64,000 nt of DNA from Escherichia virus TH47. The position numbers were made by a program, and so were the translations under genes. The stretch is taken from the sequence record MT446416.1, one strand, 5' to 3'. The notes beneath the pieces are model-generated. The model worked only from the letters and a program-made list of their open reading frames with translations. It was not told the DNA's origin and ran no database searches. Positions 21,537 to 49,425 of this stretch are shown here, in pieces (position 1 is the stretch's first letter; the number at the start of each line of letters is the position of its first letter).

Positions 21537-22037
21537 TTAGGTCACAGCTTTGTATTTCTCCATTGCTTCGGTGATATTCAATACTGCTTGCGGTACGTCA
21601 CTTTTGTTGTATGCAGTGGTTAGTTTTTCCATGTTATTGAGAAGACTAAGAAACAATGGAAGTACTTCTGCATTGTCACTGAAGTTGCAATCATTGACAG
21701 TACTCAATTGGAATAACTCACCCGCATCAACATTGAGTGTGTTGTATTCTTTAACAATGTTTTCTTCAGTATTGAAGATGTAGAATACAGTCCCCATGTG
21801 GTGTAAGTATACACCAGTTTCATTCTGAATATGACATGGGGTGATTACAATTGCTGTGTTATCAATATTATTTACTATTGTCAAACGCAGACTATGTAAC
21901 CCAAAGATTACAGTACAATCCTTTGTACTGTGTTGGATCTGGTCACTAGTAAAGGAAGACCCACTATATATTTTAGATCCATTTAGTATTTCTTTGATAA
22001 TTTTAAATGAATACTTCATCGAATTAGTTAAAAGCAT
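21537..22037 (-). CDS. family-A paralog
   Basis: Motif GELFQLSTV. Confidence 0.65.
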   Translation of the reverse strand: MLLTNSMKYSFKIIKEILNGSKIYSGSSFTSDQIQHSTKDCTVIFGLHSLRLTIVNNIDNTAIVITPCHIQNETGVYLHHMGTVFYIFNTEENIVKEYNTLNVDAGELFQLSTVNDCNFSDNAEVLPLFLSLLNNMEKLTTAYNKSDVPQAVLNITEAMEKYKAVT

Positions 22038-22437
22038 GAACTTTACCTTTAAGTAAATTAATTAATGTTCGCATAGATTCAGTACTGACAGTACCAAAAT
22101 CAACACCTAAGCACTCGTATTGAAAGAACTCAATAGAATCAATTGAGTCCAAAGGAATATCAACAACCTGATTCCCTATACCAGACATAGTAACATTGCT
22201 TTTATTAATCGTCAAGAAGTTTTTTGTATAAGTGTTAAATTTTAGAGAAATCGCGTCGGGGTGCTTTGTAACAATGCAGTACTGGGAACCGTAGACATAT
22301 AGTACTTTACTTTCACTAAGATACGTTTTAAAAAAATGAATCCCATTGAAGTATTTCTCATTGGCGACCATCGCCGCGATTAGTTCATCTGTTGTTGTTA
22401 ACCTTGTTTCGTTCTTCGTTAAACTGTTGAAAAGCAT
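22024..22437 (-). CDS. family-A-like paralog (degenerate motif)
   Basis: Motif IEFFQYECL. Confidence 0.5.
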   Translation of the reverse strand: MLFNSLTKNETRLTTTDELIAAMVANEKYFNGIHFFKTYLSESKVLYVYGSQYCIVTKHPDAISLKFNTYTKNFLTINKSNVTMSGIGNQVVDIPLDSIDSIEFFQYECLGVDFGTVSTESMRTLINLLKGKVHAFN

Positions 22438-22858
22438 AGAATACTACCTTAACCATTTGTAGTGTTTCAGACATTACTTCTGATGAAAATTCAACATCAT
22501 TGAATTTCAGCATAGTGTTCTGTGTAAAGAATGTTGCTTCTAAGTCTTCCAGATTGAAAGGTTCATCAAACAAATTAGTACTGAACATGTCAGTCTTCTT
22601 CTTGTATGTGAACAGGAATTTGGAATTATAACGAAGAACTACTTCATCTTTATTGACCAAAATACGTGCAATGTTCTGACGTGTCAATGTGGTAATGTTT
22701 AAATTGAACACGTTCTTGCGTGTTTCAGTGATATCAACAAAATACCCATCTCCCTGATGGATATTACATCGTACATCCAACCCTTTCTGTACTGTATTGA
22801 ACAGTGCATCTTGAATAAAATAATTTGCTGTATCGATGTTTCCTAAAATGTCTAACAT
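22385..22858 (-). CDS. family-A-like paralog (degenerate motif)
   Basis: Motif EATFFTQNTML. Confidence 0.5.
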   Translation of the reverse strand: MLDILGNIDTANYFIQDALFNTVQKGLDVRCNIHQGDGYFVDITETRKNVFNLNITTLTRQNIARILVNKDEVVLRYNSKFLFTYKKKTDMFSTNLFDEPFNLEDLEATFFTQNTMLKFNDVEFSSEVMSETLQMVKVVFYAFQQFNEERNKVNNNR

Positions 22859-23370
22859 AACTTCTCCTTGATTGCTGTCATATTTAGAAGAAATTCTTCA
22901 AGCAATTCCTCTGTAACATACTCAACATACCAGAATATCATAATATCTTTTGAAAGTCGAGTATTCTTAAAAATATCTACTAACTCTTTGTAGTACTCAA
23001 GATCATATACATCTTTTATAATTAGTGAGTACTGAAATAGTGATTCTTCAGTTAACTTAAATTCTGGATATAGTAAGTCATTAAATTCTAATGATTCTGA
23101 TTGTACTTTTATTTTAGTGAAGTCATTTGTTAATCCACCATTACATCCATATAATGCAGCGTAATTCACGAACTTGGCTTTTGGATTAAAATCAAGAACA
23201 GTTTCACCATTATATGACAATCGGTGGAACGCCGTGAACTTTGTAATTTGCCACGGTAGCTTAATACCTAAGTCATTTATGTCTTTATTATTGTACATAA
23301 GAACAGTGAATATTTCAGCAATCTTCAATAATAATTTAGTACGTGCTAGTACTGTCATAGGTTCAATCAT
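22852..23370 (-). CDS. family-A paralog
   Basis: Motif EESLFQYSLI. Confidence 0.65.
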   Translation of the reverse strand: MIEPMTVLARTKLLLKIAEIFTVLMYNNKDINDLGIKLPWQITKFTAFHRLSYNGETVLDFNPKAKFVNYAALYGCNGGLTNDFTKIKVQSESLEFNDLLYPEFKLTEESLFQYSLIIKDVYDLEYYKELVDIFKNTRLSKDIMIFWYVEYVTEELLEEFLLNMTAIKEKLC

Positions 23371-23783
23371 TATACACCTTCATATTCATCAAGGAAATCT
23401 TCGATGATCATTTCTGCATCATCCATATGCATAGCATCTACTTCAACAATGCGAACCTTAGATGCATCCCAAATCATATAGCTAGGAACTGTATCTGGTT
23501 CGTAATCGTTCTTGTACTGAACAGCATCGTAACCCTTAGAATTACAATGTTCAATCAGCCCACGCCACTCATCATCACTACCTAAATCTTCCCATAGAAG
23601 CACGTTATCAACATCAACTTCTAATGTATGCAAGTATACTGTATTAGCGTCAACAACGTTCAGTGGGCTTCTCAGCTTGCGTAATGCAGCTTCTAAAGCA
23701 CTGTGCTTGCCTCCCATATGAAGGCCACCATACGGGATATAAAAGTTATCAATTTTTACAGTACTCGCATGATACAGTTTCAT
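23370..23783 (-). CDS. hypothetical protein (not family A)
   Basis: Minus-strand ORF without the motif. Confidence 0.5.
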   Translation of the reverse strand: MKLYHASTVKIDNFYIPYGGLHMGGKHSALEAALRKLRSPLNVVDANTVYLHTLEVDVDNVLLWEDLGSDDEWRGLIEHCNSKGYDAVQYKNDYEPDTVPSYMIWDASKVRIVEVDAMHMDDAEMIIEDFLDEYEGV

Positions 23784-23792
23784 AATTCATTC

Positions 23793-24377
23793 CTATTTCA
23801 GTACTTTGACCAGGGCTTTAACCGCTGTTTCAAGTTGTGCAAAGTCGTTGATTGTAAGATAATGAATACCCAATGTACTCATTTCTGAATCTATTTTACT
23901 ATACAAATCGAACATGTCAAGTAGATATTGATATGTATATGACTCCGATGACACGCATGATTCTTGAAATAGACGTTCTTCCATATCATTTACTACTTCG
24001 TCATTCACGTCTCGAATCACACCATCTTTGTATGTGTAGTAAATCTCATCCCATTCATCTGATAAGTGGAATAGTAAAGGCTTACCATTAAACATCTCAA
24101 GGTCATATGCATTGATTTCACTCAATAACATATCATCAGGATCAGGTGTGAAATCGAATTGGGCGAGTGACGAACCATCATAATCTTTAAGGAATACACC
24201 AATAGCATTCAATTTAACTTCGCCATAATTGCCATTCTTGAACTTCACACGAATATTAATATCAATGTTTTGAACAGTATCATCATCTTGGAACTGATAA
24301 TCAATTTTATACTTTTCCCAAAGTTTTTTAATATCTTTGAAGTACTTAATTTTACTTTCTATTTCTTTAAAGTTCAT
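23793..24377 (-). CDS. family-A paralog
   Basis: Motif EERLFQESCV. Confidence 0.65.
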   Translation of the reverse strand: MNFKEIESKIKYFKDIKKLWEKYKIDYQFQDDDTVQNIDINIRVKFKNGNYGEVKLNAIGVFLKDYDGSSLAQFDFTPDPDDMLLSEINAYDLEMFNGKPLLFHLSDEWDEIYYTYKDGVIRDVNDEVVNDMEERLFQESCVSSESYTYQYLLDMFDLYSKIDSEMSTLGIHYLTINDFAQLETAVKALVKVLK

Positions 24378-48082: not shown

Positions 48083-48091
48083 ATTATTCTC

Positions 48092-48442
48092 TTATATGTG
48101 GAATTCACATACGTGTTGAACAAAATTCTTTGGAAGATGACAATGTGATATCATCTGCTTTTGTACTTCCTTCATATCTTCGAATGTAAATCCTAAAGAA
48201 TCATCATGTACTAACAAGTACTGAAACTCTTCTTCTTCAGAGATAGAACATAAATTCGGTACTGAAATTGTTTTTGTTTTTCTTGCACCCAATTTCCAAT
48301 GAAAAGAATTATCACATTTTCTGTACTCAAATATCTTCAACCCAGAACCCGTATTAAAATCAGCTACTACAATGTAACAAGAATTCTTACGTACAATACA
48401 ATTGAACTTACGCATTATCTCCACCTCTCCCCGTCTGTACAA
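48092..48442 (-). CDS. family-A paralog
   Basis: Motif EEEEFQYLLV. Confidence 0.6.
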   Translation of the reverse strand: MYRRGEVEIMRKFNCIVRKNSCYIVVADFNTGSGLKIFEYRKCDNSFHWKLGARKTKTISVPNLCSISEEEEFQYLLVHDDSLGFTFEDMKEVQKQMISHCHLPKNFVQHVCEFHI

Positions 48443-48660
48443 GAGTACTGGTACGTTGTCGTTATGGTAGGGACCATGTTTGTAATGGGCATATTATTAA
48501 CAATAACGGTAACAGGCATAAGAATCGTCTCTACTCTACTCTGTCCTGTCTTTGTGCAATTCATCTTCTGCATTTCATCTGAATCCATGAAATACAATAC
48601 AAATGGTGCAATCCCAAGAACAATACACAAGACGATAAGGAAATTTAAAAAATTTAACAT
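48415..48660 (-). CDS. small membrane protein
   Basis: Hydrophobic N-terminus MLNFLNFLIVLCIVLGIAPFVLYF. Confidence 0.45.
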   Translation of the reverse strand: MLNFLNFLIVLCIVLGIAPFVLYFMDSDEMQKMNCTKTGQSRVETILMPVTVIVNNMPITNMVPTITTTYQYSCTDGERWR

Positions 48661-48719
48661 AATTTTTACCCTATGATTAACGTTAGTGTACTATATCAGT
48701 AATGAAAAGTACTGTCAAG

Positions 48720-49115
48720 CTAGTATTGCACTGTTCTAATGAAAGTACCTTTACTCATGGATTTAAGCTTATGAACCTCTTCCTGTATACCCTTGAGCAA
48801 CCCTAAAGGTATAGGTACATCATGTACTAAGCTGTACTGAAAGTATTCTTCTTCAGATAAAGTACTAACATCTGGAACGCCAATTTTAGTTATATAATCT
48901 TGATGTGTTGACCAATAAATTATATCTTCAGTAGAATTGTACTCCCCATATACTGAACAATATTGATGAATATCTTTCCTGTACCCTTGAGCAATAAAGA
49001 ACTTATCTACTGCATTACCAGCATTAATAGAATTCACTTCGATTGTCACAGTACTTGAGCTTGTATAACTCTTAATATTATCAGTACTCAACTGTGTGTT
49101 CTTCATAATCACCAT
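48720..49115 (-). CDS. family-A paralog
   Basis: Motif EEEYFQYSLV. Confidence 0.65.
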   Translation of the reverse strand: MVIMKNTQLSTDNIKSYTSSSTVTIEVNSINAGNAVDKFFIAQGYRKDIHQYCSVYGEYNSTEDIIYWSTHQDYITKIGVPDVSTLSEEEYFQYSLVHDVPIPLGLLKGIQEEVHKLKSMSKGTFIRTVQY

Positions 49116-49425
49116 TAGGCTCCTGTTTAGATTCTTTCATTAGTACTATCATCTTATGTACTAATGGCATAGGAAACTCTAAATCCCATACTAATGATTC
49201 CTGGAAGTATTCCTCTGGTGATAAAGTACTTAAATCTTTAATATCAACGTGCTTGTATATTTTATTTTCGTAATTAACAAATGATATATATAAATCACTA
49301 ACATAAGAATCATAGGTAATTGTGAATGGCTTACCCTTGTAATCCATTACATCTCTACATAGACTACTTTTGATATATGTATGTTCAAATGATTTATATA
49401 CCTTGAGTTTTATATTAGTTTTCAT
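49081..49425 (-). CDS. family-A paralog
   Basis: Motif PEEYFQESLV. Confidence 0.65.
   Translation of the reverse strand: MKTNIKLKVYKSFEHTYIKSSLCRDVMDYKGKPFTITYDSYVSDLYISFVNYENKIYKHVDIKDLSTLSPEEYFQESLVWDLEFPMPLVHKMIVLMKESKQEPNGDYEEHTVEY

What the first reader, a model, noticed from the sequence alone, without database searches (positions are those of the whole stretch)
21537..49425. About 50 tandem, co-oriented paralogs sharing only a short E-E-x-[FY]-F-Q-x-S-[TL]-[VIL] motif (family A)
Nearly every ORF over 28 kb (100-210 aa; about 43 clear plus 8 degenerate) carries the same roughly 12-residue motif 40-60 aa from the C-terminus (EEQYFQLSTI, EEGYFQGSTV, EEYYFQNSTL, DEELFQQQLV and so on), while the rest of each protein is highly divergent. 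Subfamilies with shared N-termini (MSLQSAL..., CNLNKGD...) point to repeated local duplication. An amplified, diversifying phage gene family of this size with a fixed short linear motif looks like an effector or anti-defence repertoire with a common docking, packaging or processing signal. I do not recognise the family.
Basis: seen in the sequence. Interest (0 to 1): 0.9.

Follow-up and report, generated by a model that had tools for sequence, protein, structure and literature searches.

The report
Tandem FQ-motif gene family, jumbo coliphage
About 8% of this giant E. coli phage genome is one run of roughly 45-50 fast-diverging copies of a small protein with an unrecognised fold, probably made early in infection to deal with the host, and nobody has yet studied what it does.

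Summary
The minus strand of 21,537-49,425 carries 63 back-to-back genes. Of these, 43 match a profile of the motif region. Two more matches lie at 8.2-9.5 kb, and no other reading frame gives any. F and Q are invariant in all 45 and use mixed synonymous codons.

The window is an Asteriusvirus (PBECO4/121Q-like jumbo coliphage). The array lies just inside the ~21-kb left terminal repeat, behind a second family of 26 copies. Relatives carry the same syntenic array in other copy numbers: fEgEco12 45-46, BF17 43, Turkey5 35, Klebsiella RaK2 at least 27, Cronobacter GAP32 about 10.

Orthologues are under purifying selection (dN/dS 0.22) yet diverge far faster than neighbouring enzymes. Members are acidic and soluble, are absent from published virion proteomes, and sit behind consensus sigma-70 promoters.

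Best reading: an early, non-virion host-interaction repertoire built on one scaffold. The function is untested. Processing-site and packaging-signal readings are disfavoured. A 121Q tandem array was mentioned in one sentence in 2017 and never analysed.

The parts
21537..49425 (-). Family A array: 63 tightly packed co-oriented genes. 43 are profile-positive and at least 3 more are members by orthology. A few family B genes and unrelated genes are interspersed.
21537..22037 (-). member, 166 aa, AGELFQLSTV
   Evidence: A1 profile E=1.6e-9
22024..22437 (-). member, 137 aa, SIEFFQYECL (weakest; lost on iteration)
   Evidence: E=7.9e-5; not among the 44
22852..23370 (-). member, 172 aa, EESLFQYSLI
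   Evidence: E=6.3e-11
23793..24377 (-). member, 194 aa, EERLFQESCV
   Evidence: E=6.2e-11
24966..25517 (-). member, 183 aa, EEQHFQLSTL
   Evidence: E=7e-7
25529..26110 (-). member, 193 aa, EEQYFQLSTI
   Evidence: E=1.1e-16; phrog_34636
27028..27606 (-). member, 192 aa, DEELFQMSTV
   Evidence: E=1.1e-12; phrog_38467
27593..28177 (-). member, 194 aa, EAYIFQRSVL
   Evidence: E=8.3e-8
28828..29412 (-). member, 172-194 aa depending on start codon, DEVLFQLSTI
   Evidence: E=7.5e-15
29339..29896 (-). member, 185 aa, ESVMFQHMLI
   Evidence: E=4.7e-12
30419..30913 (-). member, 160-164 aa, EESYFQNTLI
   Evidence: E=7.1e-14; phrog_34017
30901..31314 (-). member, 137 aa, PDELFQYSLV
   Evidence: E=4.9e-12
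31298..31663 (-). member (short form), 121 aa, EEELFQESTV
   Evidence: E=7.4e-13
31656..32123 (-). member, 155 aa, EEMYFQWSCI
   Evidence: E=8.9e-16
32120..32602 (-). member, 160 aa, EEEFFQYSTL
   Evidence: E=1.2e-13; phrog_12674
32662..33252 (-). member, 183-196 aa, AENYFQQSLL
   Evidence: E=1.3e-12
33203..33541 (-). member (short form), 112 aa, TGELFQESLV
   Evidence: E=2.1e-10
33531..33890 (-). member (short form), 119 aa, EDELFQESLV
   Evidence: E=4.4e-15
34489..35085 (-). member, 184-198 aa, EENIFQNSLM
   Evidence: E=6.3e-11
35398..35934 (-). member, 178 aa (TTG start), DEQCFQLSCT
   Evidence: E=1.1e-5
35931..36377 (-). member, 148 aa, EEGYFQGSTV
   Evidence: E=1.4e-14; phrog_12674
36374..36817 (-). 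member, 147 aa, EDAYFQYSTI
   Evidence: E=3.4e-14
36817..37131 (-). member (short form), 104 aa, ETFLFQESLI
   Evidence: E=5.9e-11
37128..37571 (-). member, 147 aa, EEYYFQNSTL (MSLQSAL subfamily). This is the modelled long form: N-terminal helix, seven short strands, motif helix 100-106, helix 112-126, strand 132-135, helix 137-144.
   Evidence: E=6.5e-18; AlphaFold pLDDT 90.3, pTM 0.85; phrog_9317
37546..38037 (-). member, 163 aa, EEYYFQQSTV (MSLQSAL subfamily)
   Evidence: E=2.4e-18; 41% identical to 37128-37571
38037..38480 (-). member, 147 aa, EEYYFQQSLI (MSLASAL)
   Evidence: E=8.1e-15
38477..38947 (-). member, 156 aa, EEFYFQQNTI (MSFARAL)
   Evidence: E=3.6e-15
39131..39475 (-). member (short form), 114 aa, EAEIFQESLI (CNLNKGD subfamily)
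   Evidence: E=1.6e-11
39472..39831 (-). member (short form), 118-119 aa, AAELFQESLV (CNLNKGD subfamily). This is the modelled short form: five strands, motif helix 65-75, helix 83-99, strand 109-113.
   Evidence: E=1e-14; AlphaFold pLDDT 87.6, pTM 0.82; phrog_15629
39818..40312 (-). member, up to 164 aa (the true start is probably internal), DAALFQESLV (CNLYKGD)
   Evidence: E=7.1e-11
40976..41602 (-). member, 208 aa, EEMLFQYKMV
   Evidence: E=2.7e-13
41882..42520 (-). member, up to 212 aa, EAAYFQQSLI
   Evidence: E=1.1e-11
42610..43218 (-). member, 202 aa, ESFFFQLSLV
   Evidence: E=2.7e-10
43215..43781 (-). member, 188 aa, AEEYFQYSTL
   Evidence: E=7.3e-16
43857..44354 (-). member, 165 aa, EEWWFQQNLV
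   Evidence: E=1.1e-11
44661..45245 (-). member, 194 aa, EEEFFQGSML
   Evidence: E=2.3e-13
45217..45528 (-). member (short form), 103 aa, DEELFQQQLV
   Evidence: E=5.1e-11
45518..46024 (-). member, 168 aa, SSELFQKSLL
   Evidence: E=2e-17; 42% identical over full length to 46096-46650
46096..46650 (-). member, 184 aa, EAEVFQKSLI
   Evidence: E=3.7e-14
47771..48082 (-). member (short form), 103 aa, EEELFQYSLI
   Evidence: E=4.9e-14
48092..48442 (-). member (short form), 107-116 aa, EEEEFQYLLV
   Evidence: E=7.3e-6; 5.6e-10 after iteration
48720..49115 (-). member (short form), 131 aa, EEEYFQYSLV
   Evidence: E=5.2e-15
49081..49425 (-). member (short form), 114 aa, PEEYFQESLV
   Evidence: E=1.3e-14
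8213..8902 (-). member outside the reported range, 205-229 aa, EEEHFQLMMM
   Evidence: E=2.9e-9
8899..9477 (-). member outside the reported range, 192 aa, LHEHFQISTL
   Evidence: E=1.6e-11
26097..26603 (-). degenerate member, 168 aa, EENEFQNNTL
   Evidence: Not significant by profile. Reciprocal-best positional orthologue of profile-positive Turkey5 gene L006 27174-27656.
29893..30435 (-). degenerate member, 180 aa, the motif Q is lost (MERIKFSLSN)
   Evidence: Reciprocal-best orthologue of profile-positive Turkey5 gene L006 23364-23924
41541..41885 (-). degenerate member, 114 aa, EAARFQYETA
   Evidence: Reciprocal-best orthologue of profile-positive Turkey5 gene L006 11062-11502
26600..27028 (-). 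possible degenerate member, 142 aa, SLALQYGVLY
   Evidence: Borderline profile E=0.048. Size and position fit. Unproven.
28177..28740 (-). possible degenerate member, 187 aa, DVLLFNANLI (Q replaced by N)
   Evidence: Read from the sequence. Not significant by profile.
33896..34498 (-). possible degenerate member, 200 aa, EDAMFTNDIT
   Evidence: Read from the sequence. Not significant by profile (E=2.1).
32636..32665 (-). sigma-70-type promoter TTGACA-18-TATAAT with TGn extended -10, in a 59-bp intergenic gap, 34 nt upstream of the ATG of 32120-32602
   Evidence: 12/12 match; sequence checked
28768..28796 (-). sigma-70-type promoter TTTACA-17-TATAAT with TGn, 28 nt upstream of the ATG of 28177-28740
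   Evidence: 11/12 match
28810..28829 (-). terminator-like hairpin AAAGACCC-TTAT-GGGTCTTT followed by a T-run, just upstream of that promoter
43809..43837 (-). sigma-70-type promoter TTGACA-17-TACAAT with TGn, 28 nt upstream of the ATG of 43215-43781
48690..48718 (-). sigma-70-type promoter TTGACA-17-TATAGT with TGn, 30 nt upstream of the ATG of 48415-48660

Best explanation
This is a multigene family specific to the Rak2-like clade of jumbo phages. It grew by tandem duplication and has diverged almost to saturation.

Each gene encodes a small (about 100-210 aa), acidic, soluble alpha+beta protein. An antiparallel beta-sheet is highly variable and rich in insertions and deletions. It is backed by a conserved C-terminal module of motif helix, long helix and terminal strand. 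Long forms add an N-terminal helix.

The [ST]-E-E-x-[YLF]-F-Q-x-S-[LT]-[VIL] motif is the first helix of that module. The acidic stretch would cap the helix N-terminus, and the invariant F and Q would belong to the packing core. On this reading the motif is the fold's signature rather than a free linear signal.

The array lies in the left-end region, which reads inward from the ~21-kb direct terminal repeat. It is cut into operons by near-consensus sigma-70 promoters. The proteins are therefore most likely made early by host RNA polymerase, stay in the cytoplasm and are not packaged.

I infer that they form a repertoire of host-interaction factors (host take-over, counter-defence or host-range determinants). 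Each copy would present a different surface on one scaffold, and each would be kept for its own target.

Shown here: the family, its extent, the predicted fold, purifying selection, fast divergence, copy-number variation, the promoter sequences, and absence from the published virion proteomes of relatives.

Inferred, not shown: early expression, the structural role of F and Q, binding to host targets, and any biological function.
For: Family and extent:
- 45 profile hits, all in one frame set. F and Q are invariant with mixed codons.
- An exhaustive profile search of 1.84 billion representative proteins gives only 105 clusters at E<1e-3. All but two spurious repeat proteins are 55-219 aa, and 101 of the 103 show the motif by a simple pattern scan.

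Clade distribution and synteny:
- fEgEco12 has 45-46 copies, BF17 43, Turkey5 35, and Klebsiella RaK2 at least 27. In each genome the array lies upstream of the same methylase and cytidylyltransferase pair.
- Cronobacter GAP32 has about 10 visible copies at the same place, of which 2 are profile-significant.
- A 1.9-kb metagenome contig consists of six consecutive short-form members.

Fold:
- Both AlphaFold models are confident and share the C-terminal module.
- Homology extends over 71 columns between long-form groups.
- BFVD structure matches are only to uncharacterised proteins of Rak2-like phages: 121Q, SP27 and RaK2, and more weakly Yersinia, Cronobacter and Serratia phages.

Real genes under constraint:
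- Median dN/dS is 0.22 in 35 orthologue pairs against BF17. The motif region is the most constrained part (0.17).

Fast divergence:
- Median identity to Turkey5 positional orthologues is 36%. Flanking enzymes are 79-87% identical and terminal-repeat genes 85-96%.

Soluble and acidic:
- Median pI is 4.85 and median net charge is -9, with no membrane segments.

Not virion components:
-.

Early context:
- The window is the reverse complement of the fEgEco12 left end, whose physical termini and 20,993-bp repeat were determined experimentally (PMC13070987). The repeat boundary maps to about window 55,460.
- Four sigma-70 promoters with extended -10 lie 28-34 nt upstream of start codons in the few intergenic gaps.
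- In the related phage PA5oct, genes in the terminal repeat are early and the phage depends on host RNA polymerase (PMC7318152).
Against: - There is no expression, interaction or phenotype data for any member. The function is inferred from context only.
- Over the whole region, promoter-like matches are no more frequent than in shuffled sequence (115 against 118.7). Only the few best-placed sites carry weight.
- Pooled dN/dS is well below 1, so there is no direct signature of an arms race. Fast divergence could reflect weak constraint.
- The structural role of F and Q could not be checked on coordinates. Absolute invariance of a polar Gln across several genera is also what a shared functional contact would give.
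- The virion proteomes are from relatives (phAPEC6, RaK2), not from this phage.
Confidence: 0.5

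Rival explanations
1. Adaptor library with a common hub. The conserved helices (motif helix with the invariant F-Q, the following helix, and the N-terminal helix of long forms) form one shared interface to a single partner. That partner could be a host or phage machine such as RNA polymerase, a protease or chaperone, or a phage hub protein. The variable sheet of each copy would bind a different client, so the array would deliver or tether some 50 different targets to one machine.
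For: - F and Q are absolutely invariant in 45 of 45 copies and across genera, while every other column varies.
- The nearly invariant columns of the long-form subfamily all lie in helices or the last strand (A10, E100, E101, Y103, F104, Q105, L115, D135, with secondary structure).
- The beta region carries the insertions and deletions.
- The motif is the slowest-evolving segment among orthologues (dN/dS 0.17).
Against: - The same conservation pattern is expected for a folding core.
- No partner is known.
- Short and long forms align with each other only over 21 columns.
- Burial or exposure of F and Q could not be measured here.
Confidence: 0.17
2. Weakly selected genome filler. Tandem duplication supplied DNA to fill an enlarged capsid, as in the capsid-genome ratchet proposed by Hua et al. 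2017. The copies would now drift with little individual function.
For: - Hua et al. interpret a 121Q tandem array this way (PMC5646251).
- Paralogues are only 10-30% identical.
- Copy number and content vary between relatives, and several genomes lack part of the array at the DNA level.
- Some copies have lost the motif.
Against: - Orthologues are under purifying selection in every segment (median dN/dS 0.22).
- Reading frames are intact and tightly coupled.
- Gene order is kept across species with 36% protein identity.
- The motif survives across four genera.
Confidence: 0.12
3. Virion cargo. The proteins are packaged into the head, like the paralogous inner-body and ejected proteins of phiKZ, and the motif is the packaging or maturation signal.
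For: - 121Q gives a linear bubblegram pattern consistent with an inner body (PMC5646251).
- phiKZ inner-body proteins form a paralogous family (PMC12676376).
- Acidic small proteins would suit DNA-associated cargo.
Against: - The 62 virion proteins of phAPEC6 include none between gp347 and gp549, where the family lies (gp442c is a member).
- RaK2 structural proteins map to two other clusters.
- There is no match to the phiKZ family domain or to any Pfam family.
- The genes sit among sigma-70 promoters at the early end, not in the late structural region.
Confidence: 0.05
4. Proteolytic processing site. E-E-x-Y-F-Q|x resembles the sites of TEV (ENLYFQ|S/G) and 3C (LEVLFQ|GP) proteases. A glutamine-specific protease would release a C-terminal fragment of about 50 aa from every member.
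For: The resemblance is by eye only: EEGYFQGS (35931-36377) and DEVLFQLS (28828-29412). The site specificities are recalled from general knowledge.
Against: - The residue after Q is G in only 2 of 45 copies and never S or A. It is most often Y, E, Q or L.
- The motif is helical at pLDDT >90 inside a compact domain, and the 'fragment' contributes a helix and a strand to that domain.
- The prohead protease annotated in relatives is listed as 'prohead core scaffold and protease' (gp227c). From general knowledge, T4-type enzymes of that kind cut after Glu, not Gln.
- No 3C-like protease was seen in the window.
Confidence: 0.03

Closest known systems
Tandem gene arrays noted in jumbo phages 121Q and G (Hua et al. 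2017, mBio, PMC5646251; repeated in the 2026 review PMC13282480) and the ~35-copy zinc-ribbon expansion of phage G (Iyer et al. 2021, PMC7824862)
   Same: Large lineage-specific tandem expansions in jumbo phage genomes, interpreted as products of duplication. 121Q belongs to the same genus as this window.
   Different: [quoted passage not shown] It may refer to this family or to the neighbouring family B. The phage G family is a zinc ribbon with a guessed DNA-binding role. This family has no metal-binding signature and no known fold.
Multigene families next to the genome termini of large eukaryotic DNA viruses (African swine fever virus MGF110/360/505; poxvirus terminal host-range families and 'genomic accordions'); from general knowledge, not tested here
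   Same: Works like: tandem, co-oriented, strongly diverged paralogues placed next to the terminal repeats of a large linear dsDNA genome. Copy number varies between strains, and the products are non-structural.
   Different: The viruses, hosts and folds are unrelated. A host-range or immune-evasion role is demonstrated there and only inferred here. Here the orthologues are old and conserved in order, rather than recently amplified.
Early host-take-over gene blocks of classical phages (T5 pre-early genes in the terminal repeat, T7 class I genes, T4 early small ORFs, SPO1 host-take-over module); from general knowledge
   Same: Small, mostly acidic, non-essential-looking proteins. They are encoded at the genome end that carries strong host-type promoters and are transcribed inward.
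   Different: Those blocks are collections of unrelated genes, not about 50 copies of one fold. Which end of this genome enters first, and when the array is expressed, is unknown.
phiKZ paralogous head / inner-body protein family (gp92-97, gp153, gp162, gp163; PF12699)
   Same: A paralogous family in a jumbo phage whose individual members tolerate disruption (PMC12676376).
   Different: The phiKZ proteins are virion components processed by the head protease. This family is absent from the phAPEC6 and RaK2 virion lists and matches no Pfam family.
PHROGs clusters phrog_9317, 12674, 13866, 15629, 19795, 34017, 34636, 38467, 30978
   Same: The members fall into these clusters with E-values down to 1e-121.
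   Different: All are labelled 'unknown function'. PHROGs splits the family into many clusters and does not record that they are one family joined by the FQ module.
Family B of the same window (26 tandem genes of ~70-90 aa with an L-G-T-N-x-Q-E motif, 47330-55364)
   Same: Same strand, same region, same tandem-paralogue organisation. Two of its genes are embedded in the family A array.
   Different: Different size and motif, with no profile similarity. It has higher dN/dS (0.39 against 0.22).

Membership tests
Any curated protein family (Pfam-A, PDB sequences, PADLOC) | Significant profile match above the curated threshold | tested here: not met
   Pfam: 10 members scanned, nothing below E=0.05 and nothing near a gathering score. 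PDB profile searches with A2 and A3: 0 hits at E<=1. PADLOC: one weak hit only (JAB, E=0.002).
PHROGs viral protein clusters | Significant match to a PHROG profile | tested here: met
   All 10 members match PHROGs, with best E-values from 7e-32 to 7e-121. All are 'unknown function' and they are split over many PHROGs.
Tandem multigene family (duplication and divergence) | Adjacent co-oriented genes that are demonstrably homologous | tested here: met
   45 profile-positive genes on one strand. BLAST clusters of 15, 10 and 3 members. hhalign 97.4% probability over 71 columns between long-form groups.
Tandem multigene family (duplication and divergence) | Copy number differs among related genomes | tested here: met
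   Window 44-45, fEgEco12 45-46, BF17 43, Turkey5 35, RaK2 27-28, GAP32 about 10.
Short linear motif (docking or degron type) | Lies in a disordered or exposed segment and works independently of a fold; flanks are not homologous | tested here: not met
   The motif is helical (residues 100-106 and 65-75) in blocks with pLDDT 96-97, in two models. Flanking homology extends over 71 columns.
TEV / 3C-type protease cleavage site | Small residue (G, S or A) after the Q | tested here: not met
   G in 2 of 45 copies, S and A in 0 of 45.
TEV / 3C-type protease cleavage site | Site accessible in a linker, and a cognate Gln-specific protease is encoded | tested here: inconclusive
   The site is inside a compact predicted domain. 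The rest of the ~350-kb genome was not searched for such a protease.
Virion / inner-body cargo proteins | Detected in purified virions | tested here: not met
   Published proteomes of relatives were consulted. The phAPEC6 list has none between gp347 and gp549. RaK2 structural proteins lie in two other clusters. This was not measured for this phage itself.
Known anti-defence or host-take-over proteins with solved structures | Fold similarity | tested here: not met
Known anti-defence or host-take-over proteins | Inhibits a host defence system or a host process | not testable with these tools
   Needs expression and infection experiments.
Early genes transcribed by host RNA polymerase | Sigma-70 promoters placed upstream of the operons | tested here: met
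   Four near-consensus promoters with extended -10, 28-34 nt upstream of start codons in the few intergenic gaps. The overall count of promoter-like matches is not above the shuffled level.
Early genes transcribed by host RNA polymerase | Transcripts present in the first minutes of infection | not testable with these tools
   No transcriptome of an Asteriusvirus was found in the library. Only the analogy with PA5oct is available.

The most novel reading that the evidence does not exclude
The invariant F-Q helix, with its partner helices, is a common docking face for one cellular or phage machine. The hypervariable sheet of each copy recognises a different client. The array would then be a genetically encoded adaptor library of about 50 specificities plugged into one hub. 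It could, for example, target many host defence or housekeeping proteins for inhibition, relocation or degradation. No such combinatorial system has been described in phages.
Probability: 0.12. Interest if true: 0.85.

Novelty: new member of a known kind. Interest (0 to 1): 0.55.

Why it matters
Jumbo phages carry hundreds of genes of unknown function. Here one uncharacterised fold accounts for about 28 kb (8%) of a coliphage genome. It recurs, in different copy numbers, in the Rak2-like phages of Escherichia, Klebsiella and Cronobacter examined here. Structure matches hint at more distant relatives in Yersinia and Serratia phages.

The host is E. coli, and several members of the genus are being developed for therapy, so the family can be tested directly. 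If the copies are host-range or counter-defence factors, the array would help explain the breadth and variability of host range in these phages. It would also be a rich source of new inhibitors of bacterial proteins. If they are dispensable filler, about 28 kb could be removed or replaced with cargo.

Recognising that a dozen separate 'unknown' PHROG clusters are one family should also improve annotation of these genomes.

Tried and rejected
- **Composition or DNA-repeat artefact: rejected.** Shuffled proteins give about 4 motif-bearing genes against 40 observed. The F and Q codons are mixed. No off-frame profile hits occur.
- **Protease site of TEV/3C type:** considered because of the resemblance, and rejected on the residue after Q and on the structural context.
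- **Packaging signal or inner-body protein:** rejected on the virion proteomes of relatives.
- **ADP-ribosyltransferase-like catalytic motif (E-x-E / S-T-S):** considered from memory and dropped. The order of the elements does not fit and there is no profile support.
- **Positive selection:** tested crudely with pooled Nei-Gojobori dN/dS by segment, and not seen. No site-model test was run.
- **One-to-one orthology between the Asteriusvirus and RaK2 copies:** not resolvable. Best hits are weak (20-54 bits) and split evenly between within-genome and cross-genome.
- **Proving the degenerate copies by sequence:** this failed. Orthology rescued three of them.
- **AlphaFold-database (afdb50) fold search:** not available on the machine.
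- **Literature:** searches for a description of the family found only the one-line mention of a 121Q array.

Full report
**What the window is.** A 4-kb piece of the array matches 35 phage records, all of them jumbo phages (310-386 kb). The best matches, at 96-97% identity, are Escherichia phages vB_Ec-M-J, Turkey3 and fEgEco12, which belong to the genus Asteriusvirus (PBECO4/121Q-like).

The window is the reverse complement of the left end of fEgEco12. That phage's physical termini and its 20,993-bp direct terminal repeat were determined experimentally (PMC13070987). By alignment, the repeat boundary falls at about window 55,460.

Reading inward from the left end, all on one strand, the order is:
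- the inner part of the terminal repeat, with small genes that have individual promoters;
- a 26-copy family of 70-90-aa proteins (family B);
- the family in question (family A);
- then a DNA methylase, a cytidylyltransferase, an RNA ligase and a polynucleotide kinase/phosphatase.

- The motif occurs 44 times in the minus-strand frames and 11 times in the plus-strand frames, using a loose pattern.
- 40 of the 63 array genes carry the core pattern, against 3.8 +/- 1.9 in shuffled proteins.
- In an alignment of 44 motif-centred segments, only F and Q are invariant.
- A profile built from that alignment finds 45 ORF segments at E<0.01, all on the minus strand. Of these, 43 lie within 21,537-49,425 and two lie outside, at 8213-8902 and 8899-9477. 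No off-frame segment hits.
- Iterating with sequences from other phages leaves 44.
- Sizes are 103-212 aa. The motif starts a median of 52.5 residues from the C-terminus.
- The conservation is at the protein level: TTT/TTC and CAG/CAA are both used freely.
- The 'degenerate' copies cannot be proven by sequence. Three of them are positional reciprocal-best orthologues of profile-positive genes in phage Turkey5.

**More than a motif.**
- Within the MSLQSAL group and its relatives the whole protein aligns. It has an N-terminal helix, a variable middle, the motif, a helix and an F-Y-L-D strand.
- Profile-profile comparison with the other long forms gives 97.4% probability over 71 columns.
- Comparison with the short forms gives only 21 columns at 85%.
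- AlphaFold with family alignments gives confident models for a long form (147 aa, pLDDT 90.3, pTM 0.85) and a short form (118 aa, pLDDT 87.6, pTM 0.82).
- Both models have an antiparallel sheet followed by the motif as a helix, a longer helix and a final strand. The long form adds an N-terminal helix.
- The motif sits in the most confident part of each model. The [ST]-E-E stretch preceding it reads as a helix N-terminal cap; that is my inference from general knowledge of helix capping.

**No known relative.**
- Pfam, PDB sequence profiles and PADLOC give nothing useful.
- PHROGs places the members in many separate clusters of unknown function.
- Foldseek against predicted viral structures returns only uncharacterised proteins of Rak2-like jumbo phages: 121Q, SP27 and RaK2, and more weakly Yersinia fHe-Yen9, Cronobacter GAP32 and Serratia BF.
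- An exhaustive profile search of 1.84 billion representative proteins finds just 105 clusters at E<1e-3. Two are spurious repeat proteins. The rest are 55-219 aa, and 101 of the 103 show the motif in the scan.

**Distribution and evolution.**
- The same syntenic array holds 45-46 copies in fEgEco12, 43 in BF17 and 35 in the divergent Turkey5. Klebsiella phage RaK2 has at least 27, and Cronobacter phage GAP32 has about 10 readable copies of which 2 are profile-significant.
- A 1.9-kb metagenome contig consists of six consecutive short forms.
- Against BF17, 35 orthologue pairs have a median dN/dS of 0.22. Pooled values are 0.29 for the N-terminal part, 0.17 for the motif and 0.26 for the C-terminal part. 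These are functional genes and are not under pervasive positive selection.
- They nevertheless diverge much faster than their surroundings. Positional orthologues in Turkey5 have a median of 36% identity, while flanking enzymes are 79-87% identical and terminal-repeat genes 85-96%.
- Synonymous divergence along the array is patchy, from 0 to above 2. Several genomes match only part of the array at the DNA level. Both observations indicate recombinational mosaicism.
- Between genera, orthology is no longer resolvable.

**Clues to function.**
- The proteins are acidic (median pI 4.85, net charge -9) and have no membrane segments.
- Genes mostly overlap by 1-30 nt.
- The few real gaps hold near-consensus sigma-70 promoters with extended -10 elements, 28-34 nt upstream of start codons. 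One of them follows a terminator hairpin.
- Over the whole region, however, promoter-like matches are no more frequent than in shuffled sequence.
- The published virion proteome of phAPEC6 (62 proteins) has nothing between gp347 and gp549, where the family lies.
- RaK2 structural proteins map to other clusters.
- In the related PA5oct, terminal-repeat genes are early and the phage relies on host RNA polymerase.
- Together these points support an early, cytoplasmic, non-structural role. They argue against a packaging signal.
- The processing-site idea came from the resemblance to TEV/3C sites. It fails on the residue after Q (G in 2 of 45, never S or A) and on the structured context of the motif.

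**Verdict.** The finding is a real and striking family. It is best described as a clade-specific multigene family of early accessory proteins built on one new scaffold, whose signature helix carries the F-Q motif. What the proteins bind or do is unknown.

I consider a diversified host-interaction repertoire the most likely reading (about 0.5). The main alternative is a hub-docking adaptor library (about 0.17), which is also the most novel reading. Weakly selected filler (about 0.12), virion cargo (about 0.05) and a cleavage site (about 0.03) follow.

Noticed in passing
window 47330-55364 (plus 35033-35224), minus strand: Family B is a second tandem family of 26 genes of about 65-90 aa sharing an L-[GH]-T-[ND]-x-Q-E motif. 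It starts right at the inner boundary of the terminal repeat, and two or three of its copies are embedded in the family A array. Its median dN/dS against BF17 is 0.39.
   Followed up: partly
whole window; deserts at 39775-48216 and 50632-55592: The palindrome AGTACT (often C-AGTACT-G) occurs 220 times against about 21 expected from base composition. It falls in all codon phases and in intergenic DNA, so it is a DNA-level signal. It is equally enriched in fEgEco12, BF17, Turkey5, Klebsiella RaK2 and Cronobacter GAP32. Two stretches of 8.4 kb and 5 kb have none at all; these deserts are shared with fEgEco12 and BF17 but not with Turkey5. The meaning is unknown (a binding, modification or nicking site?).
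   Followed up: partly
window 55365-64000, minus strand: The inner part of the direct terminal repeat (boundary at about 55,460 by alignment to fEgEco12) has higher G+C (0.36-0.40). It holds small genes that each have their own near-consensus sigma-70 promoter, often flanked by AGTACT. An element of about 35 nt, GGATTGACTCCGGTAAGTCCCTTTGCTATTATATA, is repeated at three intergenic places (gaps 56716-56967, 57912-58073 and 60483-61202).
   Followed up: partly
window 17963-18826, minus strand: A 287-aa protein carries PDELMFQLMLTGV about 80 residues from its N-terminus. The GAP32 gene in the matching syntenic position (L007 17397-18200) has LSDESMFQLETL (profile E=0.014; orthology was not tested). 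It may be a distant, larger relative of family A.
   Followed up: partly
window 21000-50000 compared with BF17 (L003): Synonymous divergence between orthologues swings from about 0 (45.2-46.0 kb, 48.7-49.9 kb) to above 2 in neighbouring genes. The array is a recombinational mosaic.
   Followed up: partly
window 1331-7951, minus strand: An RNA-repair-type neighbourhood. It includes a PTH2-like peptidyl-tRNA hydrolase (1331-1750; Pfam E=8.5e-5, just at the cut-off), a polynucleotide kinase/phosphatase-like gene (5054-5986) and an RNA ligase (6809-7951). The last two are named from annotations of orthologues in Turkey5 and GAP32. A possible homing-endonuclease-like ORF lies at 4327-5067.
   Followed up: partly
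window 13042-14445, minus strand: A small third paralogue group: three genes of about 90-100 aa (13042-13326, 13289-13600, 14176-14445) cluster by BLAST.
   Followed up: no
window 40313-40975, minus strand: These are the largest non-coding gaps inside the array (306 and 153 bp around a 67-aa ORF). One contains a G8 run followed by A7 (GGAGGGGGGGGTAAAAAAA). No Rfam family and no tRNA were found anywhere in the window.
   Followed up: no
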